This document shows, piece by piece, positions 27,920 to 62,872 of a stretch of 64,000 nucleotides of DNA; within the stretch, counting starts at the first letter, position 1, and each line of letters opens with the position of its first letter. A model generated the notes under the pieces. The model saw only the letters and a list, made by a program, of their open reading frames with translations. It was not told where the DNA came from and searched no databases. The position numbers were made by a program, and so were the translations under genes. The stretch comes from Spironucleus salmonicida (lineage: Eukaryota): positions 558,001-622,000 of the forward strand of contig NC_090602.1 of the NCBI RefSeq assembly GCF_000497125.1. Reading direction: 5' to 3'.

Positions 27920-30738
27920 AATGTTCATAATAGGGTTTCCCAATTCTATACCGAAATGGATGGTTGATATGGCATATACCTGTGGAACTATTGTTGTAGT
28001 ACCAGTTATTCATGCATAGGCAGTAACTAATTCGAGTCATGTGTACTTTGTATAGGGGTTACGCAAGGTTTTGCATGTATATACTAAAATAAGTTTTATA
28101 CTTATGATTGTAAAGCGTAAAAATAAGACTTCTCCTCATAATATATTGGATTTTTCCTTAATTTTAGTGTTAACTGTAATGCACGTCATATTTTTTCTAC
28201 TTACATAAGTCAGTGCGCTAAGTATTAGGTTTTGATATGCAACACCATCAATATATTCAACTGCTAATCATGCGTATTAAGATAAATAATATCATGTGAA
28301 TGCAGAAATAAAACAAATTAACAGATTTGGGATACTAGTACGAAAAGATGCGGAGTCTGATTAGGAACATACATAATATTAGACACATACAGTGTTTCAG
28401 AAATTAATATTTGGTATTCATCTAAATGAAATATTCTATGTAATATTGGTTCGTATTGTAAAGGAAGTGTTGGAAATAAGTACGAAGAATGCTCCAATCT
28501 TAACTTTAATTAATATTGTAAATGCCAAATTGGATAAGTTAAAAATTATATTAACTGCAGCTAGTCAGGTTGTACGGAATGTATCTAGAATTATTATGTT
28601 TAATTTGGGAAGTATTATTTAAACACCTGAGAATAGATATAAAATATCTTTAACTATGCGTTTAATCATCTCTGAAAAAAATCTTTCCTCACTAAATTAG
28701 CTACGTGTTTTGTGTGATGACGCGTAGTAAAGCAACTATGGAAATATAATTTGCTGCAAAACATGTGACCTTTAAAATGAGACCTGTGGTTCATGTTTTG
28801 CAGGATATAATATAGAAATTCGCAGATTTGTGAATGACTCTAATAGCTGTGGAGAAAACTTTGACTCAACTCTTTGTGGGATACAATTTTACTGCAAGGC
28901 CCTTTTGATAATATCTGCTTAACTCGCTAGTATCTAAACTATGATATGGCCTGTAATTGCTAAGGTACCCAAATAAAAATTGTACACCGTGTATAAGTTC
29001 TATTTATACAGATTGTAAGCTAGATATATCTGCAATAAACAATATATGTACCTAAAGTACGTATGTTGGAGGATAAAAATGAACAAAATATGCCTTAACA
29101 ATTATTCTCCTTTATTACAAGTAATTATACCACAAATAGCGTCTAATATTTTGAATCCTCCAAAATATTCTACAATTGCAGAGTATGGGAAAACTATGTC
29201 ACATATGATCCAGCAAACTCTAAATATGATAAATTTTTAAAAGGATTTGAAGCTACTCATGAATGTCAATGCATTCAAATTCCGAATATTTGCAATTAAC
29301 ATGGAAAACCTACCAGATGCTTCTAGTAATAATTTAGTAATAGGTATTTCTTAGGCAAATATAATAATTGTTTAAATTTTATGATAGATCTCTCTTGTAA
29401 CTGCCGTGGAACCTTATTACAAAATTATATATAATACCACGGATCTCTTTGCAAAAATGTGTAACAACGTAGTATGCCATAAAATATTTCCTCGATTTGA
29501 ATATTTGCGATCAATTTTTATCGTATTCATAATATACTAATGGATTTTACTGTAAACTGGCAGCAAACACACTGATCCTTGTATGATTTGTTCTAAAATT
29601 TAAACTTAAACCTGTAAATATGGAGGAGCTATTTATAGCCTTACTTATAATACCAGCCAATATTATTTTCTAAATCAGGTTGCAAATCCAAATACGCTTT
29701 CTTGTGTTACGCCTTAAGTTGGAAATAATATTTGCAGTTAGTAACAGACATCATAGATGTGTTTTGATAACTATTTCTGCTCAGGGAATTAAAATGATAC
29801 ATGCTAATCACGTGTTAGCATTTATGAAGGTTAGAAATGCAAATATGATAAATTGTGTTTCGAAAACTGCCTATTTTGCGCAAATTAGACATTTTTATCA
29901 TATGTAACTGGATTTACACTAGAAAACAGCATTCATGCACCTTATATGTAACGCTGTCCGACAGGCTATTTTTCCCCATCTGGAAAGCCAGAATCGCCTA
30001 CCTGCCAACCGTGTTTGGTGGAAAATGAATAGCAACGTAACTACGCCGGATAAAAACACTGGTAATCGTATAATTCGCTTAACAAGTCGTGTCAGACTAG
30101 CAGAAATAGTCTATCCTTAATTAATGGAATATACGTAATTCAACCAAACCGGAACGCCATTAAATACTGCCCGATAGAATAATATTGAGACTATTTAATT
30201 TGTTCGATCTGCTTCGATTAGCATAGGGTGAGATTCTGTGGAGAGTCAGTTAACTGTTAAAATACCTATTGACAGAGACTCACAGTGTACGGACCGGATG
30301 TAATGCAAATCTGCTCAGAAAATAAAGTTATATTAAGCAGTACGCAGCATTCATATAATTACGGAATCAAACCTGATAGCAAGTTAGTTAATGGATACTC
30401 CTATTGCACATCGCCCATTTATTAATTAAAAATATACTGAGAAAAACATGCTTCTGAGCAAGAAACGTATATTTCCACCATCTGGTTATAGAGGTAGCTG
30501 CGACGATAATGTAGGATCTAAGCTGTGAGTAGAAGATACAGTCTGCAATAAACAAGTTTCATGCGAAGATGGTTCGATTATTGGCCTCTGCGTCTCTGTC
30601 TGCGTCATTGCAGGGGCGATTGTGGGCGTTGTGGCGTACAGAGTCATAAAGCACAAGTAGGGATAAAAGCAGAAGGCAGAGACGGAGAAGACCCCGCTGG
30701 TGGGCGAGGGCTCTGCGGAGAAGAGCTAGAGTGCGTGA
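27920..30738 (+). pseudogene. decayed cysteine-rich membrane protein sequence, joined at 30571 to a copied TM/tail
   Basis: Scattered CXXC remnants (e.g. CKTCDLQNETCGSCFAGY near 28755, NCLFC near 29865) in shifting frames with TGA stops. In-frame TGA at 30526 just before the TM. Left limit approximate. Confidence 0.6.
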
Positions 30739-31096
30739 ATTCGGTTTTACTTCAGTAGTGTTGGGATTGCGAGGTTTGGAAAAAGCTGGGTGATGTAGAT
30801 GTAGAAATATAGCGTACGGATAGATAAATTCGTATTTTTAAGTTTGCTGGTTTAATAGGTATAGCTGAGGTAATAAAGAGGGTTACTTGAAAATGTGTTA
30901 TAGTATATAATTGGGATTATAGTTAATATAAGTAAATTGTTTTATTATATGAATAATTAGTACAAATATGAATAAGTAAGGTTGTGTTGAGTATATTTGT
31001 TAACCCGCAGAATTTAGTACTAATATCGATATACTAGTTTTTCAGAAACCAAGATCCTTCATATATCTCTATAATACTAATAATATATTTTAAAAA

Positions 31097-31990
31097 ATGG
31101 AAGATACAGGCACGTGTTCAACTTCAGTTGCTACTTGCAAGGCTGGAAACTATTGCGCAACTATGTCAGATACATTAGAAGCATGTTTACCATGCAGTTA
31201 GAATATTTAAGATGGCTAAGGATGTTACTGTAAAAATAACACCATTTCTATTAATTGCTAATAATGTGCTAATAGCCAATGCATTAAATGCATTAAAGGA
31301 TAGTATCTCGCAAAAAATTCATGCGAATATTGTATTACTGACTGTGATGATTGTACTGCGGTATCTAATTGTCAAAAATGTGCTAAAGATCATGTCTTAG
31401 AGTAAAACCCATTGAAATGCGTACTGGTTTGCACTTCTAACAAATAGTGTGATGGCATTGGTTAAAAATTCTGTAACAAGATAACCAACAGATGTGAACC
31501 TTGCCATGGTAGTTGTAAAGAATGTTCGTCTCTAACTTTTTGTACTGTTTGTGAAAATAATTTTATTAGTACAATTAATGGTAAGTGCACCCCATAATGC
31601 AATAATATTGCTGATGGTAATTACTGTAACGATGGAGCAGCAGCTCCCTGTACAGCAGGCCTTACTTCACAATGCACTTGTGGTGATAAATAAAACTGCG
31701 CATCCTGTAATATGACAGAAAGCAAATGTGAAACATGCTTACCTAACAGTAAACTTAACGAAAGTGGAAGCTGTACCTCATGCGAAGATGGGTTCGAAAT
31801 GATAGGAACTATGTGTTGGCCTGTGGAAGCGGATGGTACCATTGACGACAATAAGCTTGGTGGAGGAGCAATTGCTGGTATAGTGATAGCCGTATTAGTG
31901 GTAGCCGGTGCAGTTGGTGCTGGAGTTTGGTTTATGATGAAGAAAAAAAGATGTATCGGTAGCGCTGGCACAAGGCATGGCAGGAAATGA
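31097..31990 (+). CDS. cysteine-rich membrane protein (VSP-like CXXC, 297 aa), IR3 copy 1
   Basis: Many CXXC motifs, GGGAIAGIVIAVLVVAGAVGAGVWF TM and KKKR tail. Confidence 0.9.
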
Positions 31991-34506
31991 TTGGAGGATA
32001 TATTATAATTCTATTCATATACTGGATCCATACTTAATTTATAGCCATAATATGCATCTAACTATCAGCAAACAGCAGACTAACATTAAAGCAGTAAGGT
32101 TAAGGATATATACTAATGTACATAATTTAGCTATTGCCTTTTAGTGTGAATATTAATAATAAAATAAAATATGTTTTCCAGCTTGGGAACCTCAGATAAT
32201 AAGGCATCATATTGGAATATAAACAAATGCACAGAAGCGCAAATAGATCCTTGCGTTAATCTGTTTATATGGCGAGTTTGTAGGCAAACATATAACACTA
32301 AGTTATAAAAAGCTCGTAAACACTTGGTTAGCAGTTTATAATCATGTGGATAGATAGTTTAAAGTGACTTTCATACGTAATTGTAAGTAAATTATTTTCG
32401 TAACCTAGACATTATTGCAATTTCTATTTTTCAAGAGATCGGCATGAGCTACTTTACACAAAAAATCGCAATATTACTGGTGATGGTATTGTGATTTGTG
32501 GTATTACCTGCTTCAATCTACGAAAGATGTTCATTAATAATCTGATGAATCTTAGTCTAAAACGAAAGTCATATTAATCCAATCAACATGACCTTAATAT
32601 CATACAATGCGCTACCAGCAATAGTTTGATGAGGTATCTATGCTTTTATTCTGAACTTGATCTCTTTTATAAAACATCTATTGGTAGCATGTTTGCATAA
32701 ATTAGTAAACACACGATTTCATACAGTGTTTGATATCTTTCACTAGAATTACTATTTTTCTAGTATGGGTAATTTTCACTATAAATTTCAAAATCTTGTT
32801 AGATTTCTTTCGAATTATTAATAACTCTGATATCAAATGGTTAGTATGTTTAGGTGTTTGACTTACCTATGAAAATCAGAATCCCAAAATAACAAGTTAT
32901 TTCCTTGCAATACCAGAGACCGTTACGTTGTGTGCTGGCTAATCATAACTTCTACGCTATATAAGCCGCAGTTAACGTATATGAAGGATTTTATTCCTGG
33001 ATAGAAGAGTATATGAACTAAGAATAAGTGTGCATACTATCAGCCAGTTTCTGGTATTGCGTGTAGGTGACTTATACTAATATATTTTTTTAACAAACGC
33101 TATCAATTAGAGATAGACAGTATCATATAAACAAACTTTTGAGAAAGCTAGCAGCAGGGGATCCTCTAGAATTGGAATCACCATCCTATGATTTTCAGAA
33201 ATACTCACATCCCGATCCTTTGTTCCTACATACAGAACTCCAGACAAAGTTATAATATTGGTACTTTATTATGGTATTCTATATTATATGATTTTCTCAA
33301 GTAAGAAAATACTATATATTACTATCCATTACCAATTCAGCTTCTAGCAGCTAAACCAGCCATATTCTGATACCTAAAGAACACTCGCGTTTTCTCAGCC
33401 TCGGATCGGTCGATATTACCTTTCGAGATAATTCATTCAGTCGAAGTTGCGCATCTCCTGTAAGAGCATAGCCAGATCAAAATACCAAATTGCACAAATA
33501 CTGAAACTATACTGTTTCTAAAATGATGGCAGCAGACAAATGCTGGAGCAGTCCGAATAAATAATCCGCATGCACCTTCTACCCACCCAACTCAAATAGC
33601 GCTAGGGAGTGCAAACCGTGACGAGCCTCCTCAATTTCATCCAAGTTTGCATGAGGCTGTCCTGCTGATGTCACCCCCAAAGCCTGCCAGCTGTGCGACA
33701 GATGAAAATCTGAACCGCTTGGATGGGGCCTGTTAAGATAGTTCTGGCTAAATAAGTTTCCGATAGGAGCTATACTCCCTGCGACTCTGGGCCAAACCGG
33801 TGCTCGTACTGCTGGGGAGGCCTTGTTTTCGCCAGAGCTGCTAAAATCTGTCCAGTAGCATGCTAGGTGCAATAAGATTGCGCAGGGTGCAGTATCAGAT
33901 ACTGGCACCGTTAACCTGACCCGTCTGGCATCTGCTGAAAGGTATGTGTTTTGCAGGTTTCGTCTGAATTTCGTGTTACCAATACTGGAACTGAGGATGT
34001 GCTGGCACTCAAAATTTAAAGCATGCACTCGAAGAAGTCTGCCGACCTATCTGCATGTAACCCAGCAACGACGGAGGTCGGCTGACTGCGCCTCCACTTT
34101 CGCAGTGGAATACATATTCAGCTAGAAGTATGTTTGAGCCACCTGCAGAGAGTTCGTAGGGTTTGACAGGTACCAGCTAGATTCCGAAACCGCCGGCGCA
34201 GGAAATGGTGCAGATTGCGCAGCTGGTACGACTCGGCGGGTGGCTGGCGACACTGCCAGAAGGTGCTTATATGAATTTATATGTTAGCAGAGCTCACTAC
34301 AGCAGGTACCATACGATGCTGCATGCGATAGCACTGCACCGTAAACGCAAAGAAGCGATCCCTCTGCCGCACAGTGGTATCCATTTCAGGGATGTTAAAT
34401 ATTATCATATAGTATAGTAGGAGGCCAGTGGTAAAATATTCTTGGGGATTACAAAATCTAGTTTCTCCGGATTGACATTATTACGTAGAACGCCCACCTT
34501 CTTAAA

Positions 34507-34791
34507 ATGGGCTGCTGCGAGACCGACTCGGCCCTGGGCGAAAAAATAGTGCAGGAGGGCAAAATATTTGAGGAGGTGAGGCTGGAGAGCCTGGCGTTGT
34601 TCAATTCCTGCAGCAACTCGAACGAGTCGTCCGACTTCTTGGTTTTCCAAAGGGGGACCTCCATAAGCTGCGCGCAGACTCCGTATTTACTTAGCATATA
34701 TAATACTTAAAATGACTTTTAGCCTTTACGATTATAGTATAGCAAATAGCAAGGTATTCACTCCGCCTAAAATGACCCTGCACCTCACTGA
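34507..34791 (+). CDS. small protein with MGCC acylation motif (94 aa), copy 1
   Basis: AAAATG start and MGCC N-terminus. The indel between copies is in frame (9 bp). The 3' end overlaps the next gene by 20 nt. Confidence 0.45.
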
Positions 34792-35326
34792 CAGGACCGC
34801 GCTGTCCAGCCACATGCAGACGCCGCTGTACGTTAACAAGCCGCAGCGTGCGCGAGAGCTCAAGTCTGTTCCGGTCCCGCAGCGCCTGCCCACCCCCAGG
34901 GTAATCGTCAAGCCGCAGGTCCAGCTCCCGCAGCACACCTGCAGCCAGACCATCTCCCGCAAAAGTGTCCCCCTCATCACGCAGAAGGACCCCTCCTGCG
35001 CGCGGTTCGACCCCTGCTGCACCGGGAAGCGCCTGCTCTCGGACCAGAAAACGCGCCCCAAGGAGCTGTACAACCGCTTCTACCAGGGGCGCAACGGCCC
35101 CATCCCCCAGGACACGCTGGGGCAGTTTACGTTCAAGGGGCGGCAGGTGGACCATGGGGCCAAGATGCGGTTCGGCGTCCACAACAGGGTAGAGCGGGAG
35201 GCGATCCCCGAGTGGAAGTTCGCGGACCTCGGCGTCGGAAAGCAGAACTGCGCCCGGGACCGGACTGGCGCGGGACTCAAGGGGCTCCTGGGGGCGACGT
35301 ACGCCGACGACGGGAAGTGGTAGTGA
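34772..35326 (+). CDS. basic Pro-rich hypothetical protein (184 aa; alternative start 34712), copy 1
   Basis: Strong GC3 bias, ends TAG-TGA. Confidence 0.75.
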
Positions 35327-36406
35327 GAGAATACGTTGGGCCGTAGCCAGGTTTATGTTTGCTTTGCATCCACTACGTGAGTAGTTTCTCGCACCTGTTG
35401 CAGCTGCTGGGAGTTTCTTGCCGCTGAGTGGCAGGAAGCCTTCTGATAATGGGCATTGCCGCATTAGAGTAGGCCAATAGGCCCCGGCGCACTGGAAAGT
35501 TCCGCCGAATCAGGCACCTAGCTTTACCTGGGTCCTACTCTACATTAGTCAACCGGCATACCGAAGTTACATATGGTTGCGTATCGTTCTCCAGTGGCAC
35601 CAGCAGCCTCTGCAACCCACCATCAGGGTTTCATCGCGCCACCGAGTTACCATATGCTTTCTAGAGGACTGCCTACATTGTAAAAGTATTTGCACCGCTA
35701 CCAATATGAATATATATTGTCTAATACACTATAAATTACTTTGCTGCAGAATGAAAGTTATCAAATTACGCGCACCCCAGAATACCAAGAGGAACTGAAT
35801 TCAAGTAGTCACTCGCACCGCCAGTTGCAGGATCTAAATCTCTCATACGGGCACCTGACTGGTTGATCATCGAAGGCTAGGTTAATCCATGAATCTGTTG
35901 GGAAGCAACCCCATGGTTCAGCAGCTCCGTATAGGCTATTGCATTATTATCATAGTTATCGCTGTAAGCTACCACTATCATCCAGCGATAGTTATTGGCG
36001 ATATTTGCTTCTTAGAGAAAAATATATAGCCTGCAAAATACAAATTGCTCATACTATATTGAACGTAAAATTTTAAATTTATACTTTTCTCTTGGTATTT
36101 TTTTTTGAAATCTGATGCTTCATATTACCACACGCACTCTGGTCTTTGACAAAAGGAAACTGCGCTGGTATTCTTTATGCAATGAAGTACTTATTAACAC
36201 GACGCAAGTCCTTGCAAACGAGCGTCATGCTGTTACCTTAGTTCTCCTGATCCACCTATCTCAGGATACCGTAAAAATAAAAGGGCTATACGGATATTAC
36301 TATCTCAGCCAAATACCTGAACTTATCCAAACTTCATGCTGCTTACCTTTAAATTTAAAAACTATCGCCACCCGCAATTATTTTGCACTAACAAGCTGCT
36401 AGGACT

Positions 36407-37300
36407 TCATATAACTTCTGCCGCCGCTCGTTTCTTCTGAATTATGTAGTGCGAAATCCCGCCGCAAATTGCTGCAATAATTAATATACTGCACCCAACA
36501 ATAATTTCTATAACCTCAACACTTAATTTTCTGTCAATATCCTCTCCTTAATATGGTAAACACATATGGCCGATTTTCTAGTACCCAGATACACATTCCT
36601 CGCACTTCCCAAACATATCCATCTTAAGATTAGGAAGGCAGGAACCACATTTTAGAGTGAAATCTGAACATGTTGCGCAATTTTTACTCTCCCCACACAT
36701 GCAAGTGGACGTTATATTTTCGTCACAAAGCGATACCACACCATCTTTGCAGTAGTACCCAATCTTGAGATCCTGACAGGTCTTGGTGCACGTACCATTA
36801 ATTGTTATTACACTATAAGAATTATCTTCTAAGCACTGTACGCAGAAGCTTCCTGAAAGACAAATTGAACATCCTTTTTGGCACGGTCTGCAGTGGCGTT
36901 ATTCCAAATCGCAGTAGCCAGCGTTCCATTCCTAGCAATCACTATTTTCCGTGCAAGCGCGATAACACGTGTTATCACGCGCATCAAGCAGGAACCCAGG
37001 TTTGCACGTCGTGCAGAACGCGCGCGAGTAGCAGGTTACGCAGTTTTCATCGCACTTGCTGCACATGCCAATCTGGTCGGGAAAGAAGCCTGAAATGCAC
37101 GTTTTGCATCTCTTCAGCCCGCAGACCTGACAGTTTTCGAATTCGAAATTGGCGACGCAGTTGCAGCCCTGGCCAAGGTGAATGTTGTGGTCGTCGCAAG
37201 GCAGACAGTCGATCATGTCCATGTCAGCGGCTGTTGCGGGGCAGAACGTGTCTTTGGGGCATATGTTGAAGTTAATCGAGCATTGGCCTAGTTGATTCAT
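36407..37300 (-). CDS. cysteine-rich membrane protein (297 aa)
   Basis: MNQLGQCSINFNIC.. with a CXXC array, TM IIVGCSILIIAAICGGISHYII and QKKRAAAEVI tail. Confidence 0.9.
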
Positions 37301-38427
37301 TTTAGCAGGATGATTTTATTTTTCGAATATTATCCGGTAAAACGTATAATAGAGAGAATTTGTGGCTGCAAATTCTACGGTTTCTTTGTATATATATTAT
37401 ATGATAATAAAGATAAAATAAGTAGAAAGTATTAGGAAGGGACTGTATTTATGAATAATAATTTGCTAAATTGTATAATACAAAACGGAGGCTAAATATA
37501 GTTTTTGGTGGAAAAATGTGAATTGGTTGGCTTGGGATGTTGCTTATGCGATTAATAAGTATAATTTTATCTATATTGTAGATAGATATCATAGGAAAAA
37601 TAAGCTTATACGGTAAATAATTCTTGTGAATATAATCTAAAATTAAGTATATAATCAAGTTTTATATTTTGTAAATTTTTAAGTTAAAAAATTATGTCCA
37701 AATTCTATTATTTTGCATTAAATTGTATTAATAAGCTTTTACGAATTAAAATTATGAATTTTTCTAAATGGTTTACTTCTTATATCTGTTATGATAACTT
37801 CTCATAATGCTGAACTATTATAATAAAAATTAGCATTATATGGTGTATGAGGTTTTATGGTCTACTGAATTATTCGGTTTTAATATATACCAGATATTCC
37901 ACTAACGATGAAGAAAAAATTTAGTTAGAAATTCTCCTAGTGAGTTCCATGTAATATCTAATCTTTGTAGTTTATGGTGTTAAATTTATAACTAATAGGT
38001 TGTTTCATGTGATTCAAACAACAGTATCTTACTTAGGTAAGTTTATGAAATAGTTAATCAATCAAGTATATAATGGGTATGGACATAACAAAAAATTCTA
38101 CTAATTATGAGAAACTATAATTATACTATTTATTGATAACAGATGCTGATGTATAAATTTTCTACACTTTTTGTAAAAATTTTCTACAGTAAGGGTTTTT
38201 ATATTATAATAGCTTTTACTTTTCTTTATTCTAATTATGATTGGATATATAAGCAAATAATAATTGTTTCTAGTTATTTGTTTTTAAAATAATTTTTATA
38301 CTAACGAAGATGAAATATAATAGCTTTAGTATCTTCAAAGAACTAGTATTAGTTTTTTGAGAACAACAAATATAGATATATAAAATAATAATAAAATAAT
38401 GCTGATTTATTTATTTAAAAAATAAAA

Positions 38428-38721
38428 ATGTTTCACACAGATTCATTTTCCGAAGAGCAAGTTATCCCATAGCTACATTCTGCAATTAATTAGTATGGCA
38501 CAGATTGGGTAAAAATATAGAAGAATAGACTTCCAAACTTTAAAATTTCAGAAATAAGATCACTCTACAAAGCTAGTACCGTAGATCACGTAGAAGAGAT
38601 TAAATCATCGACTTTAAAACACTGTTCTTCAGATGTATGTGTATAAGATATCGAATTTTCGTCCGAGCTTTCTTTTGCAGAGGACTGCGCGACGTGTGTG
38701 GAAGATTTCCTCCTGGGATGA
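38428..38721 (+). CDS. small Myb/SANT-like protein (97 aa)
   Basis: FSEEQ..QLHSAINQYGTDWVKIQKNRLPN..ISEIRSLY. Confidence 0.65.
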
Positions 38722-38814
38722 GTGATTACTGTCTATTGTCGAGTTATCCTTTAAATTACTAAATAGTTTATATTATATGTTATGAATACTTATCTCCATT
38801 TTCCTTCCGCGCTA

Positions 38815-39924
38815 ATGGGATGTGGAATTCCACCTGTGCTCACTGCGTCGGGGCCGCTTCCTGACGTGATGGAGGCGTCTCAAATTCCAGAGACAAGGAT
38901 GCAAATAGCCGATACACTCGATTTCTCGCTGACCGCTTCGGTATCGGCCTCCATGTCCATGCACATGCAGCGCCAGCCTGTCTTCGCTGCGTTCGTACGC
39001 AAAACAGACGCATATGCAGCCCCTAAGCTACACTAGGTGGCGTGCGAGTATCTTACTGCGGGGAGGACAGCTACGTTCTTCGGCGCCGAGCTGGAGGGCC
39101 TTGAGGTGCTGACTGGCACCGTGCTCTGCCTGCACAAGCTGGAGAACTTCAGCCAGTACGTGGTCGACTCGTTTGTGAACCAGCTGGTGCTGAGCGTGAA
39201 CCTGCCAGATATTTTCACGCGCACGCTGGACTTCCAGCCGCAGAAGATGTTGCAGGGGGTGGAGCAGGTGAACTACAGCGTACACCAGCTGATTTAGCAT
39301 TTTCACCAGCTGCCCATCCACCTCGTGCGGTTGGTGGTTAAGAACGTTTCTGCATTCATCATCTATCTGCAATAGTTCAACATCATCAGCAACGGGATCG
39401 CGCCGTCCAACGTAGCCATCAAGAAGAATATGGGATTCTCGCTGCAGAACCTGTTTGCCTCCAGCCGGGTCCACGCCTCGCCGAATGTGCCATATTGCGG
39501 CATCAACGAGGCGGAGAACATCGTGAATCTAGTGACCCGGATGTGCTACAACACCTGTATATTTTTTCAGTTCAAGAGCCTAGAGAGCCTCTTGATCTAC
39601 GATGGCGAATGCTGCTTTGATGACTATTTTACTGGAGATATAGAGGACTTCGTCAGGGCAGTGGGCGCGAGCGAGACCATGCAGGAGGTCGCCGATCACC
39701 AATTCGTCCGCGATGCCCAGGTCTCTTTCATTACCGAGCTAACTGAAATCCGAGATGACGTTGAGTTTAAGGAGGAGCGGGTGCTCCAGTAGTTCCTGGA
39801 CGGGTTCAGAGGATAGGTAGCACCTACCGAGGATTTTACAGAGGGTGTGGAATCGCAAGTTTGTCGTGGGTTTTCAGAAGCGTACTTCGGCAGGAGAGCC
39901 TGCGAGGGAGGGATCACATTTTGA
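38815..39924 (+). CDS. N-acylated pseudokinase-like protein (369 aa)
   Basis: MGCG start. LPIHLVRLVVKNVSAFIIYLQQFNIISNGIAPSNVAI fits kinase helix E and catalytic-loop spacing without HRD, QNL replaces DFG, and MQEVADHQFV resembles subdomain XI. Confidence 0.6.
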
Positions 39925-39962
39925 CCCAACTATAAAGTGAGAATTTTGTTAATGTAAAGCGC

Positions 39963-48119: not shown

Positions 48120-48344
48120 TCACTTAAAAACTAATCTCTTCAACGATTATATATTCTGTTAGTCAAAGTTAAAATCATTATCGTCTGAAAGCTCTAAATT
48201 GAAAGAAATATTTATTCCTCGCTACAATATTGACTATGAAATGGCAACACTAGTTAGTGCCATTAATTTTGTATTGTGATTAGATAATGGTGGCAATATG
48301 CGCTTATTTCGTATCATTTTATAGGTATAATTATAGTTCTCCAT
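48120..48344 (-). CDS. small hypothetical protein (74 aa)
   Basis: AAAATG start, ends AAGTGA. Confidence 0.35.
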
Positions 48345-49007: not shown

Positions 49008-51503
49008 ATGATAGTCTTTGTACTAACTGAAACTATTTTCCCTTTATTTTCATAGTTTGATAAAGACAAACATATACCTAGAGGCCCAAATTCTAGAATT
49101 TTACCAGAAAAATTTTCTTATATTGATAATAAATGTATTGATAAATTTATAAGAAACTAAGGTTCATGTGGAAATTGTTGGGCTGTAGCTACTGTAACAG
49201 CTTTAGGTTTACGAAGATGCCTATAAGGTGATGATTAACTTCTATCTATTGAAGAGCATACTGGTTGCGACCATGTGAGTAAATATGGCGTCACCAACAA
49301 TGGCTGTAAAAATGGTAATGCTATTCCAGCTATGTATTACTCATAGAATATAGGCGACGTGTATGAATCTTGTATAAAATACAAATAAGCTAACGCATTT
49401 TATCCGTGGACTGATGTTGCTTGTTAATAGAAATGTGATAATGGATAAGAAAAGTAAAGATTTAAAGCCACTAATGCTAAAAGAATTTCAGGTATAGATA
49501 ATATCAAACAAGAAATCTTAGTTAATGGGCCTGTTGCTGCTTCAATCTTCTTATATTCAGATTTTCCTCCTAAAAATAAACTAGAGCCATATTATTAAAC
49601 AACTACCTAAAAATAAGGTGGTCATGCAGTAGTTATAGTAGGTTGGGGTGAATATAAGGGTGTTCCATATTGGGATATTGTAAATGGATATGGTAAAACC
49701 TGGAATTAAGATGGCCGAGTTAGAGTTAGATTAGGTACTAACGAAATGTCACTTGAGTCATATGTCACAGCTGCTGATGTTAAAATCAATAATGATATAA
49801 AACCACCTATTAATAATGGATAGTTTTCATTTTAAGATAATTTTATTTATCAATAATAAGCAGTTGTTTAGTATACTAAATTTAGTTAATGTTTGCTCAA
49901 AATAGATAATACTATAATTTAAACAATTGAAGGTACTGGAACGGTAAAGTTTTATGTAGACGTTATTCCAGGATAGCATACATTTTCATGTAATAATATT
50001 AATAAATAATTTAATGTTATAACGTACAATCTAGAATTTACTATAATGCCAACAATAGTCAAAGAAAATGATATGATAACAGTTTAGAGTCTTGAATTAT
50101 CAGCTAGCTAAACAGTTTCATACAACTATTAAAATTATTCTTTAATAAATGGAAAAGTTTAGATAAAAACTATTATTGGATAATCATAAATCTAGATATT
50201 CTCTATTAATACAAATCCTATCATGAAAGAAAATAAGATTATAGTATTCAAGGAATCTCCTTTGGATCCAGATATTTAACCACCATAGGATGGAACTGTA
50301 TTAAAAATTACTCAATAACCACTATAATTTTACGAAGTTCATGGAAAGGCAACTATATAACTTCTCATATAATTTATATTTAAATTAAAAGTAGAGGTTT
50401 TTAATACACATGGCACGAAAATCTAAATTATAAATTGGTAAAACCCTTAGAATATTAAATATGAAATATATTAAACTTTTACAAGTTAGTAATTGGCTTA
50501 AGGAGAGTATTATTTCTAAATAACAGGTACCAATAACTATATTATTCGATCTATTAAATTTTCTGTTGGTAAATAACTTTGTACTTTAGTATTTCCTTCT
50601 CATTTAGATTAAATTTATTAATTCCATGATTTTCCAATCTCAACTTTAAATTGTGGGGGGGAATTCATTAAAATAGACTAGTAGATAATACCTATTACGA
50701 ATCCATCTATCACTTATCAAAATATGTTAACTCTAGGAGCACATATGATTTTCTTAGGCGAACTATAAGCTACAATAAATATTATCTAACCTCCATCTTT
50801 TACAGATACTATTCTTTATGGGAATATTAATGAGGTTGTCGTATTACAGGTATAAAATCTACCTTAGAAGTATATCATTCAAACATAACTTTAGTATAAT
50901 GTGAACAGCTTATCCTTTAGCATCACATCTAACAAAGCAGGAACCTTTGACTTTACACTTAAATCATAATAGGTTTACCCGGATATTACATTAAAAGCAT
51001 AAATTGTGTTTTTAGCAAATTCTTGTACAATTAGTATAGATTAAAGTAATCCTCTTGTTAATAAATAAATAATTCTTACAACTACGTGTGTAGGCCAATA
51101 AGTTTTATACTATCCTTCTGGTGAGACAAAAGTTATTGAAAACTTATTTACACCACATATTTAAGGAAAATATAAAATATGCATTACTACAAATTGCATA
51201 GAGTTTTCTGTCAAAGGTATAAATGTTGAAATAGATTTTAATAAAATTAACAGTTTAATTGATAAATTTTCAATTTAATTTTCAATTATATAGTAATAAA
51301 AGTTAGTTATTTAGATTTTATGTCCAGAAAATAATTACAAATTGAATTTGATTGTGTTTGAATCAGATACTAAACTTTAGCATTTAATTTTACCAGAACT
51401 TGTATGTAAGAAGGCTTATATTAGGATTAAAAGTATTGGAACTACTAATTTAATATATGGTGATTCATCATATTTTGATGTACAATAAAATCTTTTAATT
51501 TGA
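49008..51503 (+). CDS. papain-family (C1A, cathepsin B-like) protease with long C-terminal extension (831 aa)
   Basis: RNQGSCGNCWA, NNGCKNG, NGPVAA, GGHAVVIVGWG, PYWDIVNGYG. The frame stays open for about 580 more codons. Confidence 0.9.
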
Positions 51504-51553
51504 CATTCTGAATACTTTTATAATTTTTATATATAATAGCGTTATTGTTAAAA

Positions 51554-52777: not shown

Positions 52778-53407
52778 TTGTTGAGTTAGTATATTTATAG
52801 TAGAATTCGTAGTAAATTTATATTACTCTGGTAATCTAGATTTTTTCTACTATAAATATTGTAAAATAGAATAAGAAATAATACTTATATAATAATATAT
52901 TTATATTCTTATTAATGTTGCGGAAGTTTTAAATTCACTCCAATTCATTAAAAATATATAATATTTACAACAAAATTAATTATTTAAGAATACTTCTATA
53001 TAAAAGTATATATTAATATAAACTATATTAATAAATGGATTGATACTACTTCAACCATGGTCACTAATAAAGAAAACTAATTTATTAAATAATATTATTA
53101 TTATTATCTGAATATAAGCAGTAGAAATTATTATAACTATTTTAAATATGTAGTAAAACATAGAACTAAATCTATAACCATATTAGTAAATATTATTTTA
53201 ATAACCAAGTTTCATGAATACACACTAAAATTACTATTGAAATAATAATATTAGAATAGTCAAAATCTAAATATAAAATTTATTCTTTTTTATACGTATT
53301 AAATTATATAGATGTAATTATAATATATGGAATTCAAAAAAACAATATTATTCTTTAAACTAGATATCGTAATATAAATTAACAATCTAATTATTTTAAA
53401 TTTACTA

Positions 53408-54301
53408 ATGGGAAAATATGGTCAATGTTCAATTAATGTTAATATGTGTATAGTAAATTCATACTGCCCAGCAAATACTACTGACAATAGTCTAATTAAC
53501 TGTTTGCCATGTGACTCCAATAAGATTCAAATTGGTTAAGGTTGTAATTGTATAAATAATATATAATTCAATAACTGTGTAAAATGCATTGATAATAAAT
53601 GTGAAGATTGTTTATTAGGATATTTTCTTAATAATTAAGGAATTTGTATAAAATGCGAAGATAAGTGCAGTATATGTTAATCTGAGACATTTTGTATGAC
53701 ATGTGATGAAGGATTTGCTTTAGATATTGATGCAAATATTTGTTATCCTGTTTGTACATCTAATATTTAATGTCAAGATACTAATAATGGTTATTGCAAC
53801 TTTGATAACAATTATTGCAAGCCATGTTAAAATAATTGTAAAATTTGTTTATCTGAGGTATTTTGTGTTTAATGTGATTGAGATAGTTCGACTAGGGTAA
53901 ATACTATTGATGATATATGTACTAAGTCATGTTTCGATTTAAGCAGTGGCTATTACTGTAAGAATGGCGTTGCTACCATTTGTGATAATAATACATCTTC
54001 TGCATGCATGTGTTTTGGAAAGATTAACTGCAGCACATGCGGTAATAGTAATTATGGGTGTGGTAAATGTCTTCCTAATTTTTAACTTGACAATACCGGA
54101 AATTGTTCTTCATGCCAGCCAGGGTATCAAAATATTGGAAACTTATGTATTCCAATATAAGATGACGAAGCACGTACAAAAATAAGTAATCAAGTAATAG
54201 CAGTTATGATTGGGTGCAGTATATTAATTATTGCAGCAATTTGCGGCGGGATTTCGCACTACATAATTCAGAAGAAACGAGCGGCGGCAGAAGTTATATG
54301 A
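53408..54301 (+). CDS. cysteine-rich membrane protein (297 aa), paralog of 36407..37300
   Basis: MGKYGQCSINVNMC.. with the same Cys spacing. Last about 30 codons identical to the paralog. Confidence 0.9.
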
Positions 54302-55382
54302 AGTCCTAGCAGCTTGTTAGTGCAAAATAATTGCGGGTGGCGATAGTTTTTAAATTTAAAGGTAAGCAGCATGAAGTTTGGATAAGTTCAGGTATTTGGC
54401 TGAGATAGTAATATCCGTATAGCCCTTTTATTTTTACGGTATCCTGAGATAGGTGGATCAGGAGAACTAAGGTAACAGCATGACGCTCGTTTGCAAGGAC
54501 TTGCGTCGTGTTAATAAGTACTTCATTGCATAAAGAATAGCAGCGCAATTTCCTTTTGTCAAAGACCAGAGTGCGTGTGGTAACATGAAGCATCAGATTT
54601 CAAAAAAAAAATACCAAGAGAAAAGTATAAATTTAAAATTTTACGTTCAATATAGTATGAGCAATTTGTATTTTGCAGGCTATATATTTTTCTCTAAGAA
54701 GCAAATATCGCCAATAACTATCGCTGGATGATAGTGGTAGCTTACAGCGATATTTATGATAATAATGCAATAGCCTATACGGAGCTGCTGAACCATGGGG
54801 TTGCTTCCCAACAGATTCATGGATTAACCTAGCCTTCGATGATCAACCAGTCAGGTGCTCGTATGAGAGATTTAGATCCTGCAACTGGCGGTGCGAGTGA
54901 CTACTTGAATTCAGTTCCTCTTGGTATTCTGGGGTGCGCGTAATTTGATAACTTTCATTCTGCAGCAAAGTAATTTATAGTGTATTAGACAATATATATT
55001 CATATTGGTAGCGGTGCAAATACTTTTACAATGTAGGCAGTCCTCTAGAAAGCATATGGTAACTCGGTGGCGCGATGAAAACCTGATGGTGGGTTATACA
55101 GGCTGCTGGTGCCACTGGAGAACGATACGCAACCATATGTAACTTCGGTATGCCGGTTGAATAATGTAGAGTAGGACCCAGGTAAAGCTAGGTGCCTGAT
55201 TCGGCGGAACTTTCCAGTGCGCCGGGGCCTATTGGCCTACTCTAATGCGGCAATGCCCATTATCAGAAGGCTTCCTGCCACTCAGCGGCAAGAAACTCCC
55301 AGCAGCTGCAACAGGTGCGAGAAACTACTCACGTAGTGGATGCAAAGCAAACATAAACCTGGCTACGGCCCAACGTATTCTC

Positions 55383-55937
55383 TCACTACCACTTCCCGTC
55401 GTCGGCGTACGTCGCCCCCAGGAGCCCCTTGACTCCCGCGCCAGTCCGGTCCCGGGCGCAGTTCTGCTTTCCGACGCCGAGGTCCGCGAACTTCCACTCG
55501 GGGATCGCCTCCCGCTCTACCCTGTTGTGGACGCCGAACCGCATCTTGGCCCCATGGTCCACCTGCCGCCCCTTGAACGTAAACTGCCCCAGCGTGTCCT
55601 GGGGGATGGGGCCGTTGCGCCCCTGGTAGAAGCGGTTGTACAGCTCCTTGGGGCGCGTTTTCTGGTCCGAGAGCAGGCGCTTCCCGGTGCAGCAGGGGTC
55701 GAACCGCGCGCAGGAGGGGTCCTTCTGCGTGATGAGGGGGACACTTTTGCGGGAGATGGTCTGGCTGCAGGTGTGCTGCGGGAGCTGGACCTGCGGCTTG
55801 ACGATTACCCTGGGGGTGGGCAGGCGCTGCGGGACCGGAACAGACTTGAGCTCTCGCACACGCTGCGGCTTGTTAACGTACAGCGGCGTCTGCATGTGGC
55901 TGGATAGCGCGGTCCTGTCAGTGAGGTGCAGGGTCAT
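55383..55937 (-). CDS. basic Pro-rich hypothetical protein, copy 2
   Basis: Mirror of 34772..35326 with A/V and L/V differences. Confidence 0.75.
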
Positions 55938-56193
55938 TTTAGGCGGAGTGAATACCTTGCTATTTGCTATACTATAATCGTAAAGGCTAAAAGTCATTTT
56001 AAGTATTATATATGCTAAGTAAATACGGAGTCGGTGCGCAGCTTATGGAGGTCCCCCTTTGGAAAACCAAGAAGTCGGACGACTCGTTCGAGTTGCTGCA
56101 GGAATTGAACAAAGCCAGCCTCACCTCCTCAAATATTTTGCCCTCCTGCACTATTTTTTCGCCCAGGGCCGAGTCGGTCTCGCAGCAGCCCAT
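55918..56193 (-). CDS. small MGCC protein (91 aa), copy 2
   Basis: Mirror of 34507..34791 lacking three codons. Confidence 0.45.
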
Positions 56194-58709
56194 TTTAAGA
56201 AGGTGGGCGTTCTACGTAATAATGTCAATCCGGAGAAACTAGATTTTGTAATCCCCAAGAATATTTTACCACTGGCCTCCTACTATACTATATGATAATA
56301 TTTAACATCCCTGAAATGGATACCACTGTGCGGCAGAGGGATCGCTTCTTTGCGTTTACGGTGCAGTGCTATCGCATGCAGCATCGTATGGTACCTGCTG
56401 TAGTGAGCTCTGCTAACATATAAATTCATATAAGCACCGTCTGGCAGTGTCGCCAGCCACCCGCCGAGTCGTACCAGCTGCGCAATCTGCACCATTTCCT
56501 GCGCCGGCGGTTTCGGAATCTAGCTGGTACCTGTCAAACCCTACGAACTCTCTGCAGGTGGCTCAACCATACTTCTAGCTGAATATGTATTCCACTGCGA
56601 AAGTGGAGGCGCAGTCAGCCGACCTCCGTCGTTGCTGGGTTACATGCAGATAGGTCAGCAGACTTCTTCGAGTGCATGCTTTAAATTTTGAGTGCCAGCA
56701 CATCCTCAGTTCCAGTATTGGTAACACGAAATTCAGACGAAACCTGCAAAACACATACCTTTCAGCAGATGCCAGACGGGTCAGGTTAACGGTGCCAGTA
56801 TCTGATACTGCACCCTGCGCAATCTTATTGCACCTAGCATGCTACTGGACAGATTTTAGCAGCTCTGGCGAAAACAAGGCCTCCCCAGCAGTACGAGCAC
56901 CGGTTTGGCCCAGAGTCGCAGGGAGTATAGCTCCTATCGGAAACTTATTTAGCCAGAACTATCTTAACAGGCCCCATCCAAGCGGGTCAGATTTTCATCT
57001 GTCGCACAGCTGGCAGGCTTTGGGGGTGACATCAGCAGGACAGCCTCATGCAAACTTGGATGAAATTGAGGAGGCTCGCCACGGTTTGCACTCCCTAGCG
57101 CTATTTGAGTTGGGTGGGTAGAAGGTGCATGCGGATTATTTATTCGGACTGCTCCAGCATTTTTCTGCTGCCATCATTTTAGAAACAGTATAGTTTCAGT
57201 ATTTGTGCAATTTGGTATTTTGATCTGGCTATGCTCTTACAGGAGATGCGCAACTTCGACTGAATGAATTATCTCGAAAGGTAATATCGACCGATCCGAG
57301 GCTGAGAAAACGCGAGTGTTCTTTAGGTATCAGAATATGGCTGGTTTAGCTGCTAGAAGCTGAATTGGTAATGGATAGTAATATATAGTATTTTCTTACT
57401 TGAGAAAATCATATAATATAGAATACCATAATAAAGTACCAATATTATAACTTTGTCTGGAGTTCTGTATGTAGGAACAAAGGATCGGGATGTGAGTATT
57501 TCTGAAAATCATAGGATGGTGATTCCAATTCTAGAGGATCCCCTGCTGCTAGCTTTCTCAAAAGTTTGTTTATATGATACTGTCTATCTCTAATTGATAG
57601 CGTTTGTTAAAAAAATATATTAGTATAAGTCACCTACACGCAATACCAGAAACTGGCTGATAGTATGCACACTTATTCTTAGTTCATATACTCTTCTATC
57701 CAGGAATAAAATCCTTCATATACGTTAACTGCGGCTTATATAGCGTAGAAGTTATGATTAGCCAGCACACAACGTAACGGTCTCTGGTATTGCAAGGAAA
57801 TAACTTGTTATTTTGGGATTCTGATTTTCATAGGTAAGTCAAACACCTAAACATACTAACCATTTGATATCAGAGTTATTAATAATTCGAAAGAAATCTA
57901 ACAAGATTTTGAAATTTATAGTGAAAATTACCCATACTAGAAAAATAGTAATTCTAGTGAAAGATATCAAACACTGTATGAAATCGTGTGTTTACTAATT
58001 TATGCAAACATGCTATCAATAAATGTTTTAGAACAGAGATCAACTTGATCATAAAAGCATAGATACCTCATCAAACTATTGCTGGTAGCGCATTGTATGA
58101 TATTAAGGTCATGTTGATTGGATTAATATGACTTTCGTTTTAGACTAAGATTCATCAGATTATTAATGAATATATTTCATAGATTGAAGCAGGTAATACC
58201 ACAAATCACAATACCATCACCAGTAATATTGCGATTTTTTGTGTAAAGTAGCTCATGCCGATCTCCTGAAAAATAGAAATTGCAATAATGTCTAGGTTAC
58301 GAAAATAATTTACTTACAATTACGTATGAACGTCACTTTAAACTATCTATCCACATGATTATAAACTGCTAACCAAGTGTTTACGAGCTTTTTATAACTT
58401 AGTGTTATATGTTTGCCTACAAACTCGCCATATAAACAGATTAACGCAAGGATCTATTTGCGCTTCTGTGCATTTGTTTATATTCCAATATGATGCCTTA
58501 TTATCTGAGGTTCCCAAGCTGGAAAACATATTTTATTTTATTATTAATATTCACACTAAAAGGCAATAGCTAAATTATAAATATTAGTATATATCCTTAA
58601 GCTTACTGCTTTAATGCTAGTCTGCTGTTTGCTGATAGTTAGATGCATATTATGGCTATAAATTAAGTATGGATCCAGTATATGAATAGAATTATAATAT
58701 ATCCTCCAA

Positions 58710-59603
58710 TCATTTCCTGCCATGCCTTGTGCCAGCGCTACCGATACATCTTTTTTTCTTCATCATAAACCAAACTCCAGCACCAACTGCACCGGCTACC
58801 ACTAATACGGCTATCACTATACCAGCAATTGCTCCTCCACTAAGCTTATTGTCGTCAATGGTACCATCCGCTTCCACAGGCCAACACATAGTTCCTATCA
58901 TTTCGAACCCATCTTCGCATGAGGTACAGCTTCCATTTTCGTTAAGTTTACTGTTAGGTAAGCATGTTTCACATTTGTTTTCTGACTGATTACAGGATGC
59001 GCAGTTTTATTTATCACCACAAGTGCATTGTGAAGTAAGGCCTGCTGTACAGGGAGCTGCTGCTCCATCGTTACAGTAATTACCATCAGCAATATTATTG
59101 CATTATGGGGTGCACTTACCATTAATTGTACTAATAAAATTATTTTCACAAACAGTACAAAAAGTTAGAGACGAACATTCTTTACAACTACCATGGCAAG
59201 GTTCACATCTGTTGGTTATCTTGTTACAGAATTTTTAACCAATGCCCTCACACTATTTGTTAGAAGTGCAAACCAGTACGCATTTCAATGGGTTTTACTC
59301 TAAGACATGATCTTTAGCACATTTTTGACACTTAGATAACGCAGTACAATCATCACAGTCAGGAATACAATATTCGCATTAATTTCTTGCGAGATATGTT
59401 CCTTTAATGCATTTAATGCATTGGCTATTAGCACATTATTAGCAATTAATAGAAATGGTGTTATTTTTACAGTAACATCCTTAGCCATCTTAAATATTCT
59501 AACTGCATGGTAAACATGCTTCTAATGTATCTGACATAGTTGCGCAATAGTTTCCAGCCTTGCAAGTAGCAACTGAAGTTGAACACGTGCCTGTATCTTC
59601 CAT
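58710..59603 (-). CDS. cysteine-rich membrane protein (297 aa), IR3 copy 2
   Basis: Mirror of 31097..31990 with about 12 amino-acid changes. Confidence 0.9.
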
Positions 59604-59962
59604 TTTTTAAAATATATTATTGGTATTATAGAGTTATCTAAAGGATCTTGGTTTCTGAAAAAAGTAGTATATCGATATTAGTACTAAATTCTGCGGGTTA
59701 ACAAATATACTCAACACAACCTTACTTATTCATATTTGTACTAATTATTCATATAATAAAACAATTTACTTATATTAACTATAATCCCAATTATATACTA
59801 TAACACATTTTCAAGTAACCCTCTTTATTACCTCAGCTATACCTATTAAACCAGCAAACTTAAAAATACGAATTTATCTATCCGTACGCTATATTTCTAC
59901 ATCTACATCACCCAGCTTTTTCCAAACCTCGCAATCCCAACACTACTGAAGTAAAACCGAAT

Positions 59963-60520
59963 TCACGCACTCTAGCTCTTCTCCGCCGAGCCCTCGCCCA
60001 CCAGCGGGGTCTTCTCCGTCTCTGCCTTCTGCTTTTATCCCTACTTGTGCTTTATGACTCTGTACGCCACAACGCCCACAATCGCCCCCGCGATGACGCA
60101 GACAGAGACGCAGAGGCCAATAATCGAACCCTCAGGCATGGCCTCCGTGGCCACCTCGCACGCTCCCGAATCGCCCAATTTTGTGCCCGCCGGGCAGGAC
60201 TTGCAGAACGCCTTGGCGTCCATTCCGGACTCGCAGCGGCACACGAAAGCCTCGTTCACGAGCTTGCAGATGCCGTTTGGGTAGCACGATTCATTGCCGC
60301 AGTTCGCGGGGTAGCACTTTTGGTCCTGCAAAATGGAATGCGGGAAGCGAGCGCAGATTGCGCAGGCCTTCGTGAAGTCGTATCCCGGGTTGCACTTGCA
60401 AACTGCGTAAATCGGGTTTTCAGTAGACTGGACGCACTGGCCGTTATCGTGGCAGTTTTGATCGCACGTGTCAATGAGGCAGGTGTCGTTGATTAAAATT
60501 TCTTGTTGGCCGCAGTCCAT
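59963..60520 (-). CDS. EGF-like cysteine-rich membrane protein (185 aa)
   Basis: CHDNGQC..CKCNPGYD and CYPNGIC..CRCESG. TM IIGLCVSVCVIAGAIVGVVAY. Reads through the TAG at 60041. Confidence 0.85.

Positions 60521-62422: not shown

Positions 62423-62872
<450 letters not shown>

What the first reader, a model, noticed from the sequence alone, without database searches (positions are those of the whole stretch)
30571..60130. Both ends of the 5.9-kb inverted repeat fall at transmembrane segments of Cys-rich surface genes: different ectodomains on identical anchors
Seen: the inner ends (36498/54210) fall near the start of the TM of two CRMPs. Those genes have identical length (894 nt) and Cys spacing but clearly diverged ectodomains, and share an identical GCSILIIAAICGGISHYIIQKKRAAAEVI end and 3' flank. 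The outer ends (30571/60130) fall at GSIIGL, the start of the TM shared by an intact EGF-like gene and a decayed CXXC sequence. Known: Giardia VSPs have variable CXXC ectodomains with a conserved TM/tail. Inference: recombination or gene conversion primed in anchor-coding DNA swaps ectodomains and drags neighbouring genes along, a candidate DNA-level surface-antigen diversification system.
Basis: partly seen in the sequence, partly recalled or inferred. Interest (0 to 1): 0.85.

Follow-up and report, generated by a model that had tools for sequence, protein, structure and literature searches.

The report
Inverted duplication primed at antigen anchor
In a fish-parasite genome, a 5.9-kb mirror-image duplication begins where two old sister surface-protein genes share their membrane anchor, but its other end is a chance join into a dead gene; it looks like ordinary homology-guided DNA repair, which here occasionally puts different surface proteins on the same anchor, rather than a dedicated antigen-shuffling system.

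Summary
The repeat is real at the stated coordinates (98.7% identical), and both ends touch TM-coding DNA. The two ends differ in kind.

Inner end: an in-register switch 6 codons into the TM of two 297-codon cysteine-rich membrane protein (CRMP) genes.

Outer end: not anchor-to-anchor. A long-dead ~1,090-aa-family CRMP is cut ~138 codons short of its own TM and joined to the EGF-like gene's TM.

In 864 kb of CRMP-rich DNA, other long-duplication ends are not enriched at TMs (1 of 58; 1.34 expected). However, identity edges between distantly related CRMPs do favour the anchor (5 of 8–10 vs 1.2–1.4; p 0.04–0.09 after merging related events), and several true ectodomain/anchor chimeras exist in arrays.

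Best reading: homology-primed repair synthesis, working like trypanosome VSG 3′ donation. It re-pairs tails and 3′ flanks and creates no new epitopes. No read-level check was possible. Earlier scan notes saw similar edges on other DNA of this genome.

The parts
30571..36498 (.). Left arm of the inverted duplication
   Evidence: blastn and alignment, 98.7% identity; 75 differing columns including a 9-nt indel
54210..60130 (.). Right arm of the inverted duplication
   Evidence: only these two copies found in the genome
36499..54209 (.). 17.7-kb spacer (ABC transporter, CFAP91, papain-like protease, others)
   Evidence: Pfam; no homology found between its two ends beyond the CRMP starts
36407..37300 (-). 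Intact 297-aa CRMP (L); CRMP2 class by tail; its last 30 codons lie in the arm
   Evidence: 12 CXXC, 14% Cys, no [KR][KR]x[KR][KR]; GC3 0.51
53408..54301 (+). Sister CRMP (R), 894 nt, broken by an in-frame TGA at 53879-53881; same anchor as L
   Evidence: ectodomain-only tree, sister of L with support 0.998; GC3 0.21
59963..60520 (-). Intact 185-aa EGF-like cysteine-rich membrane gene; arm ends at its TM start
   Evidence: EGF_3, below the curated cut-off; single full copy
30571..30738 (+). Orphan copy of the EGF-like gene's TM and tail, in frame with the last surviving piece of pseudogene X
27866..30570 (+). Pseudogene X: decayed member of a ~1,090-aa CRMP family found on C4, cut at about residue 945 of a frame whose TM starts at 1083
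   Evidence: tblastn; genome search; its missing 3' part not found in the C7 stretches held
31097..31990 (+). Arm-internal 297-aa CRMP, left copy
   Evidence: GC3 0.29; VSP Pfam hit below the cut-off
58710..59603 (-). Arm-internal 297-aa CRMP, right copy; 12 of 12 changed codons are amino-acid changes
33484..34049 (+). Decayed GC-rich CRMP relic inside the arm (mirror at about 56729-57177, minus strand)
   Evidence: tblastn and tblastx
34712..35326 (+). GC-rich 204-aa gene of no Pfam family carried in the arm (mirror 55383-55997, minus strand)
38657..39953 (+). Spacer gene with its own inverted copy at G000:C7:632272-633568, an interlocked repeat

Best explanation
The repeat is the scar of one-ended, homology-primed repair synthesis (SDSA/BIR-type template switch). 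L and R were an old inverted pair of sister CRMP genes 17.7 kb apart. After a break or stalled fork downstream of one of them, its 3' end invaded the other inside the TM-coding part, the best-matching stretch between diverged paralogs. It copied 5.9 kb of downstream DNA, then rejoined the far side of the break, inside dead gene X, through little or no homology. That second join lands at the EGF-like gene's TM start most likely by chance in a CRMP-dense cluster. X's last ~138 codons and the recipient's old anchor were lost. Later patchy arm-to-arm conversion left clustered differences. The spacer may have flipped between the arms, so which of L and R was the donor is not settled. The same homology rule, with no dedicated machinery, explains the distant-ectodomain/shared-anchor chimeras in CRMP arrays. 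SHOWN: anatomy, sister relation, non-homologous outer join, edge statistics. INFERRED: the break, the order of steps, later conversion, any flip.
For: The inner join is in exact codon register with a sharp step from ~55% to 100% identity and no gradient. L and R are sisters on ectodomain alone (support 0.998 among 53 sequences) and best mutual hits genome-wide (325 vs 221 bits); pS 0.89 and pN 0.33 make the pair old. The outer join is off-register by ~138 codons, with at most 2-3 matching bases at the join and an offset CATGC nearby. The arm is not a uniform GC island: its CRMP has GC3 0.29, and GC-rich DNA extends outside the arm, unlike long-converted palindromes (GC3 0.67-0.88). The TM bin is the most alike part among paralogs (identity 0.72 vs 0.58-0.69 within C9) and the only DNA-level match to distant paralogs. 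Distant-pair edges lie in the anchor in 5 of 8 to 5 of 10 cases vs 1.2-1.4 expected; close pairs 2 of 38-40. The 66 arm differences are clustered (26 gaps of 10 nt or less vs 6.9 expected), and arm identity falls with spacer length across 13 C7 repeats (rho -0.81). NHEJ is reported absent in metamonads and alternative end joining absent in parasitic diplomonads, leaving HR-type repair (PMC8516963, passages).
Against: The outer end at a TM start remains an unexplained 1-2% coincidence. Donor polarity is unresolved: anchor GC3 (12 of 29) fits L (p=1.0) better than R (p=0.008-0.10), but 3 of 13 AT-rich family members have anchors as GC-rich. The EGF-like ectodomain and L's 5' third are GC-rich without a present partner, which could mean an older, longer duplication. 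The distant-pair anchor bias weakens to 3 of 6-8 (p 0.04-0.09) when three events sharing one tail type are merged, and its thresholds were chosen after seeing the data. No read spans any junction in my hands.
Confidence: 0.6

Rival explanations
1. Old palindrome, two steps. An ancient inverted duplication ran from the CRMP start codons past the EGF-like gene. Arm-to-arm conversion kept the middle alike but never crossed the diverging ectodomains, so the inner end is a conversion-tract edge. A later deletion trimmed the left outer end into X.
For: It explains why L and R are sisters in mirror positions. Arm differences are clustered; identity tracks spacer length; the EGF-like ectodomain is GC-rich without a partner. 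Earlier scan notes describe such half-homogenised pairs elsewhere in this genome (unchecked lead).
Against: Conversion lasting long enough to saturate ectodomain pS (0.89) should have made the arm GC-rich, yet its CRMP has GC3 0.29 and intergenic bins are 0.28-0.34. No older homology was found upstream of the two start codons. There is no identity gradient at the edge. It needs a second event.
Confidence: 0.2
2. One reading: a dedicated, anchor-targeted recombination route that swaps ectodomains and diversifies surface antigens, dragging neighbours along.
For: Both ends touch TM DNA. 3'-shared edges pile up at the TM in the ~290-aa family (7 of 21 vs null share 0.11, p=0.006). One tail type (KRVEQQ) sits on 8 genes from three ectodomain subfamilies. 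The synonymous-distance correlation is lowest across the TM boundary (0.09 vs 0.16-0.47).
Against: No enrichment of long-duplication ends (1 of 58) or of all coding edges (7 of 63). No matching excess of 5'-shared edges, as swaps from extant donors would give (0 of 31 in the TM zone). Anchors are not more homogenised at synonymous sites (0.31 vs 0.26-0.37). Near-identical CRMP pairs show pN/pS 0.43 (21 pairs). No conserved signal was seen at the joins. The outer join makes a dead chimera. Ectodomains stay unchanged.
Confidence: 0.07
3. Staggered-break inversion: the 17.7-kb spacer was inverted and the 5.9-kb block was copied at the breakpoint, the ancestral order keeping L and the EGF-like gene intact on one copy.
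For: The intact genes sit diagonally (inner-left and outer-right) and the broken ones on the other diagonal.
Against: End-joining would not give an in-register join between sister genes. X's missing 3' part is not at the other spacer end. End-joining pathways are reported absent (PMC8516963). The same layout follows from the best explanation plus a spacer flip.
Confidence: 0.08
4. Assembly artefact: allelic haplotypes or a mis-join placed as an inverted repeat.
For: No read-level check was obtained. The species has two diploid nuclei and higher allelic variation near CRMPs (PMC9509377).
Against: Arms differ at 75 columns with indels and have four distinct unique flanks. About 13 similar inverted pairs lie in this part of C7. 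Four DNA runs of one study hold 0.89-0.93 of the sampled words of 29600-38000 (possibly the source sample, so weak).
Confidence: 0.04

Closest known systems
Trypanosoma brucei VSG '3' donation' (Hall et al. 2013, PMC3708902; passages read)
   Same: Genes of low overall identity recombine through local homology in the membrane-proximal, anchor-coding 3' part. The authors doubt that this combinatorial diversity adds antigenic variation, since the boundary is buried.
   Different: In VSG it occurs at an expression site during infection (358 of 629 sequences there) and changes which N-terminal domain is expressed. Here there is no known expression site, each ectodomain keeps its own upstream DNA, the events are fixed in one assembly, and the copied tract runs 5.9 kb into neighbouring genes.
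Duplicated regions and CRMP1/CRMP2 arrays of Spironucleus salmonicida (Xu et al. 2022, PMC9509377, parts 1-2 of 3 read; Xu et al. 2014, PMC3916229, passages)
   Same: 19.2% of the species' genome lies in duplications of at least 2 kb at 95% identity, GC-richer than the rest; 138 CRMP1 and 248 CRMP2 plus pseudogenes; the authors suggest gene conversion in repertoire expansion.
   Different: The text I read gives no breakpoint analysis, no anchor-sharing chimeras and no account of inverted orientation.
Giardia vsp and pseudo-vsp exchange (G. muris, PMC7641422; passages read)
   Same: Cys-rich type I membrane antigens; identical inverted gene pairs a few kb apart; evidence of recombination or segmental conversion; large families proposed as anchoring points for rearrangement.
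   Different: Those pairs are identical over the whole gene; no anchor-limited edge is described in the passages read. CRMPs lack the CRGKA tail and signal peptides, and RNAi genes were not found (PMC3916229).
Plastid inverted-repeat expansion by double-strand-break repair or conversion (Goulding model as summarised in PMC2275221; passages read)
   Same: One arm grows by copying DNA beyond the other arm, truncating a gene at the new border.
   Different: Organelle DNA with one standing repeat. Here the primer is a ~90-nt homeologous anchor between nuclear paralogs.

Membership tests
S. salmonicida CRMP2 (Xu 2014 definition) | Three or more CXXC or CXC motifs | tested here: met
   L 12+2, R 12+2, arm gene 12+2, EGF-like 2+2
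S. salmonicida CRMP2 (Xu 2014 definition) | C-terminal TM segment, no [KR][KR]x[KR][KR] motif | tested here: met
   Hydropathy calls; strict motif absent in all four
S. salmonicida CRMP1 / VSP-like | [KR][KR]x[KR][KR] after the TM | tested here: not met
   Strict motif absent in L, R, the EGF-like gene and the arm gene; only a shortened KKKR in the arm gene
Giardia VSP | CRGKA-type tail | tested here: not met
   Tails read directly; Pfam VSP hit of the arm gene is 25.7 bits, below the 31.4 cut-off
VSG-type 3' donation | In-register boundary in the membrane-proximal 3' part between genes of low overall identity | tested here: met
   Inner join; g012/g013, g098/g100, g119/g127/g129. Not met by the outer join
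VSG-type 3' donation | Occurs at an expression site and changes the expressed ectodomain | not testable with these tools
   No expression site known; no usable RNA reads
Programmed antigenic-variation recombination system | Breakpoints enriched at a fixed site across the family | tested here: inconclusive
   Long duplications 1 of 58 vs 1.34 and all coding edges 7 of 63 vs 5.7: not enriched. Distant pairs 5 of 8-10, 3 of 6-8 after merging. Sample is 5.9% of the genome, without the C2 arrays
Programmed antigenic-variation recombination system | Joins vary among clones or during infection | not testable with these tools
   One assembly; no read data obtained
Long-term GC-biased arm-to-arm converted palindrome | Arm is a GC island whose borders match the identity borders | tested here: not met
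   Arm GC 0.42 and patchy; arm CRMP GC3 0.29; GC-rich DNA continues outside both ends
Staggered-break inversion | The two novel flanks rejoin into one ancestral sequence | tested here: not met
   X's missing 3' part is not at the spacer end or in the C7 stretches held

The most novel reading that the evidence does not exclude
Anchor exchange is a recurrent, selected route in this RNAi-less parasite for re-pairing old ectodomains with new cytoplasmic tails and 3' flanks, and so for changing where a CRMP is sent or how strongly it is expressed. It would be a 3'-donation-like layer of surface-protein control without an expression site, of which this duplication is a long-tract case. My data do not exclude it: one tail type sits on three ectodomain subfamilies, distant-pair edges favour the anchor, and tagged CRMP1s were reported in different membrane domains (PMC3916229).
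Probability: 0.13. Interest if true: 0.72.

Novelty: new member of a known kind. Interest (0 to 1): 0.38.

Why it matters
How Spironucleus controls and renews its several hundred VSP-like genes without RNAi is an open question (PMC3916229, PMC6397501, passages). This locus and the array chimeras give concrete joins to follow in clones and isolates. They also show that the conserved anchor is the landing pad for recombination between distant CRMPs in an organism reported to lack end-joining. The effect on antigenicity is probably small, because the exposed part is untouched; any effect would be on tails, 3' flanks and gene copy number.

Tried and rejected
Standard-code ORFs gave few genes; code 6 was adopted.

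TGA as selenocysteine: rejected, since it aligns with a non-Cys column.

Outer join as TM-to-TM: rejected. Search for X's lost 3' end in the C7 stretches held: nothing. Older homology upstream of L and R: nothing above noise.

General positive selection on near-identical CRMP pairs: rejected, pN/pS 0.43 in 21 pairs. The arm pair alone (12 of 12 codons non-synonymous, p about 0.06) is only suggestive. Preferential homogenisation of anchors in the C9 array: not seen.

Conserved-TM artefact as the cause of the 3'-edge pile-up: a numeric null gave TM-zone shares of 0.04-0.12, so it does not explain it. The first stratified test was biased because shared tracts inflate identity; it was redone on unshared parts. 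GC3 could not settle the donor.

No RNA holder listed. No read-level check was obtained. The C2 CRMP arrays were not sampled beyond two loci used as queries.

Literature searches listed no paper on anchor-primed exchange or inverted duplications in Spironucleus; the library lacks most subscription papers and no supplements were read. Earlier-finding look-ups near this place and by words found nothing. No fold, complex or large homolog search was run, as none bore on the question.
Full report
SETTING. The window is G000:C7:558001-622000 of a 14.55-Mb genome in 42 contigs. Few ORFs open under the standard code; with TAA/TAG read as Gln (table 6), ordinary genes appear. [quoted passage not shown] For that species 138 CRMP1, 248 CRMP2 and 19.2% duplicated DNA are published (PMC9509377, parts 1-2 of 3 read).

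OBSERVATION. The inverted repeat is at 30571-36498 and 54210-60130, 98.7% identical, with 75 differing columns, and has only two copies in the genome. It is not unusual locally: the window has two more inverted repeats, and the 264 kb of C7 examined hold about 13. A spacer gene has its own inverted copy outside the right arm.

INNER END. Gene L (36407-37300, minus) is intact, 297 aa. Gene R (53408-54301, plus) has the same length and all 40 ectodomain cysteines, but an in-frame TGA at codon 158. Identity steps from 52-64% to 100% in codon 268, about six residues into the TM, without a gradient. On the first 250 residues alone, L and R are sisters among 53 family members (support 0.998); they are also best hits genome-wide (325 vs 221 bits). 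Synonymous sites are saturated (pS 0.89, pN 0.33), so this is an old pair long kept under selection, with R broken recently. Equal length is a family trait; the CRMP inside the arm is also 894 nt.

OUTER END. On the right, the arm stops at the TM start of an intact, single-copy 185-aa EGF-like gene. On the left, the flank is pseudogene X (about 27866-30570), with several stops and frameshifts. It is related to intact CRMPs of about 1,090 aa on C4 and is cut at about residue 945 of a frame whose TM begins at 1083. The join is therefore about 138 codons off register, with 2-3 matching bases and an offset CATGC nearby. X's lost end was not found in the C7 stretches held. This end is at a TM on the donor side only, and the chimera it makes is dead.

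TEST OF ENRICHMENT. I held 864 kb (5.9% of the genome: the window plus 80 stretches, most centred on CRMP clusters; the large C2 arrays are missing). It yielded 132 gene calls, of which 3 were dropped as false or frameshifted, leaving 129, and 141 anchors including broken ones. Of 60 independent ends of duplications of at least 1 kb and 97% identity, 3 lie in a TM zone (-30 to +60 nt). Without the window's two it is 1 of 58 against 1.34 from a sliding null (p=0.75); at 500 nt or more it is 2 of 76 against 2.0. Of 65 identity edges inside CRMP coding DNA, 9 are in the TM zone against 6.0; without the window's two, 7 of 63 against 5.7.

WHAT SURVIVES. All TM-zone edges are of one polarity: anchor and downstream shared, ectodomain different (7 of 32 vs 2.8 without the window; 0 of 31 for the opposite polarity; a split made after seeing the data). 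In the ~290-aa family it is 7 of 21 against a conservation-aware numeric null share of about 0.11 (p=0.006). Stratified by divergence of the unshared part (48 of 51 events measurable), distant pairs have their edge in the anchor in 5 of 8 (under 45% aa) to 5 of 10 (under 55%) against 1.2-1.4 expected; closer pairs in 2 of 38-40. Three of the five share one tail lineage; merged, the count is 3 of 6-8 (p 0.04-0.09). Clear chimeras are g012/g013 on C5 (42% aa, 99.9% over 1,562 nt from the TM on) and g098/g100 on C9 (37% aa, 99.5% over 646 nt); the KRVEQQ tail sits on 8 genes of three ectodomain subfamilies. A DNA search with one CRMP locus hits distant paralogs only in the anchor. Against a special role: anchors are no more homogenised at synonymous sites than ectodomain windows (0.31 vs 0.26-0.37), 43 of 51 pair-level edges lie outside the anchor, and 21 near-identical pairs show pN/pS 0.43.

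MECHANISM. The simplest account (0.6) is one-ended repair synthesis. A 3' end in one sister's TM invaded the other sister, copied 5.9 kb and rejoined inside X by a near-blunt template switch. Canonical and alternative end joining are reported absent in parasitic diplomonads (PMC8516963, passages), which favours HR-type routes. The arm is not a GC island (arm CRMP GC3 0.29; GC-rich DNA outside both ends), which argues against very long conversion. Yet its 66 differences are clustered, and identity of 13 C7 repeats falls with spacer length (rho -0.81), which suggests later patchy conversion. The intact genes lie diagonally, so the spacer may have flipped; anchor GC3 leans to L as the native owner but the family control is not clean. 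The break, the order of steps, the conversion and any flip are inferred. Rivals are an old palindrome with a conversion edge plus a deletion (0.2), a staggered-break inversion (0.08), a dedicated swapping system (0.07) and misassembly (0.04). I obtained no read-level check; four DNA runs of one study hold most sampled words of the left arm and its flanks, which is weak support.

COMPARISON. The inner join and the array chimeras work like VSG 3' donation, where genes of low overall identity recombine through local homology near the anchor and the authors doubt any gain in antigenic variation (PMC3708902, passages). They are not members of that system: no expression site is known here. Exchange among Giardia vsp genes and identical inverted vsp pairs are described (PMC7641422, passages). 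Growth of an inverted repeat by break repair is described for plastids (PMC2275221, passages). By the published definitions the four intact or near-intact genes are CRMP2, not CRMP1 or VSP (PMC3916229, passages). Passages of PMC11437800, PMC8957917 and PMC6397501 were read for context. Five searches listed no report of anchor-primed exchange in Spironucleus; supplements were not read. The terms SDSA, MMBIR and spacer flip-flop are partly from my own knowledge.

VERDICT. Real and well placed, but half of the claimed pattern is a non-homologous join into a dead gene, and long-duplication ends are not TM-enriched. What remains is a modest, testable sign that the conserved anchor primes recombination between distant CRMPs: a new instance of a known kind of process. 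Interest 0.38.

Noticed in passing
window 1920-3869 / 7283-9230: Second inverted repeat (99.6-99.9%) carrying a 191-aa CRMP; its inner ends lie about 48 nt upstream of the start codon, around a spacer with a CAP-domain membrane gene.
   Followed up: partly
window 10851-13834 / 17589-20572: Third inverted repeat (99.9%); its outer end cuts a 965-aa Sel1-like gene, leaving a headless 3' copy at about 10851-11990.
   Followed up: partly
window 15471-16137 and 62404-62871: Two long (TTA)n arrays, 222 and 156 copies, 96-98% pure; the first lies in the spacer of the third inverted repeat.
   Followed up: no
window 31097-31990 vs 58710-59603: All 12 changed codons between the two arm CRMP copies alter the amino acid and none hits a Cys (p about 0.06); a C9 pair (g078/g079) shows 9 of 9, although the family average is pN/pS 0.43.
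   Followed up: partly
window 6212-7186 and 61238-62200: Two related (68% nt) membrane genes; the first has a bacterial-type CAP domain by Pfam. Each lies next to an inverted repeat.
   Followed up: no
G000:C7:498001-762000 (L042-L061 and window): About 13 inverted duplications against 2 direct ones; arm identity falls as the spacer lengthens (rho -0.81).
   Followed up: partly
G000:C7:670177-672463 / 698506-700794 (L052-L055): Inverted repeat whose end falls at the stop codon of a CRMP pair, the opposite polarity to the finding; its upstream DNA is weakly related to the inside of the window's arm.
   Followed up: partly
L122-L124 (G000:C4): Three very GC-rich (GC3 0.82-0.87) CRMPs of about 1,090 aa with an identical last ~50 residues and patchwork ectodomains.
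   Followed up: no
G000:C9:367000-563000 (L072-L087): In the tandem CRMP1 arrays several shared tracts run from a gene's TM through the intergenic DNA to just before the next start codon, leaving both ectodomains out.
   Followed up: partly
window 49008-51503: 831-aa papain-family protease with a long C-terminal extension, in the spacer.
   Followed up: no
L021:3445-3870 (G000:C2): A ~420-nt dispersed repeat with at least 10 copies at 84-90% on several contigs; nature unknown.
   Followed up: no
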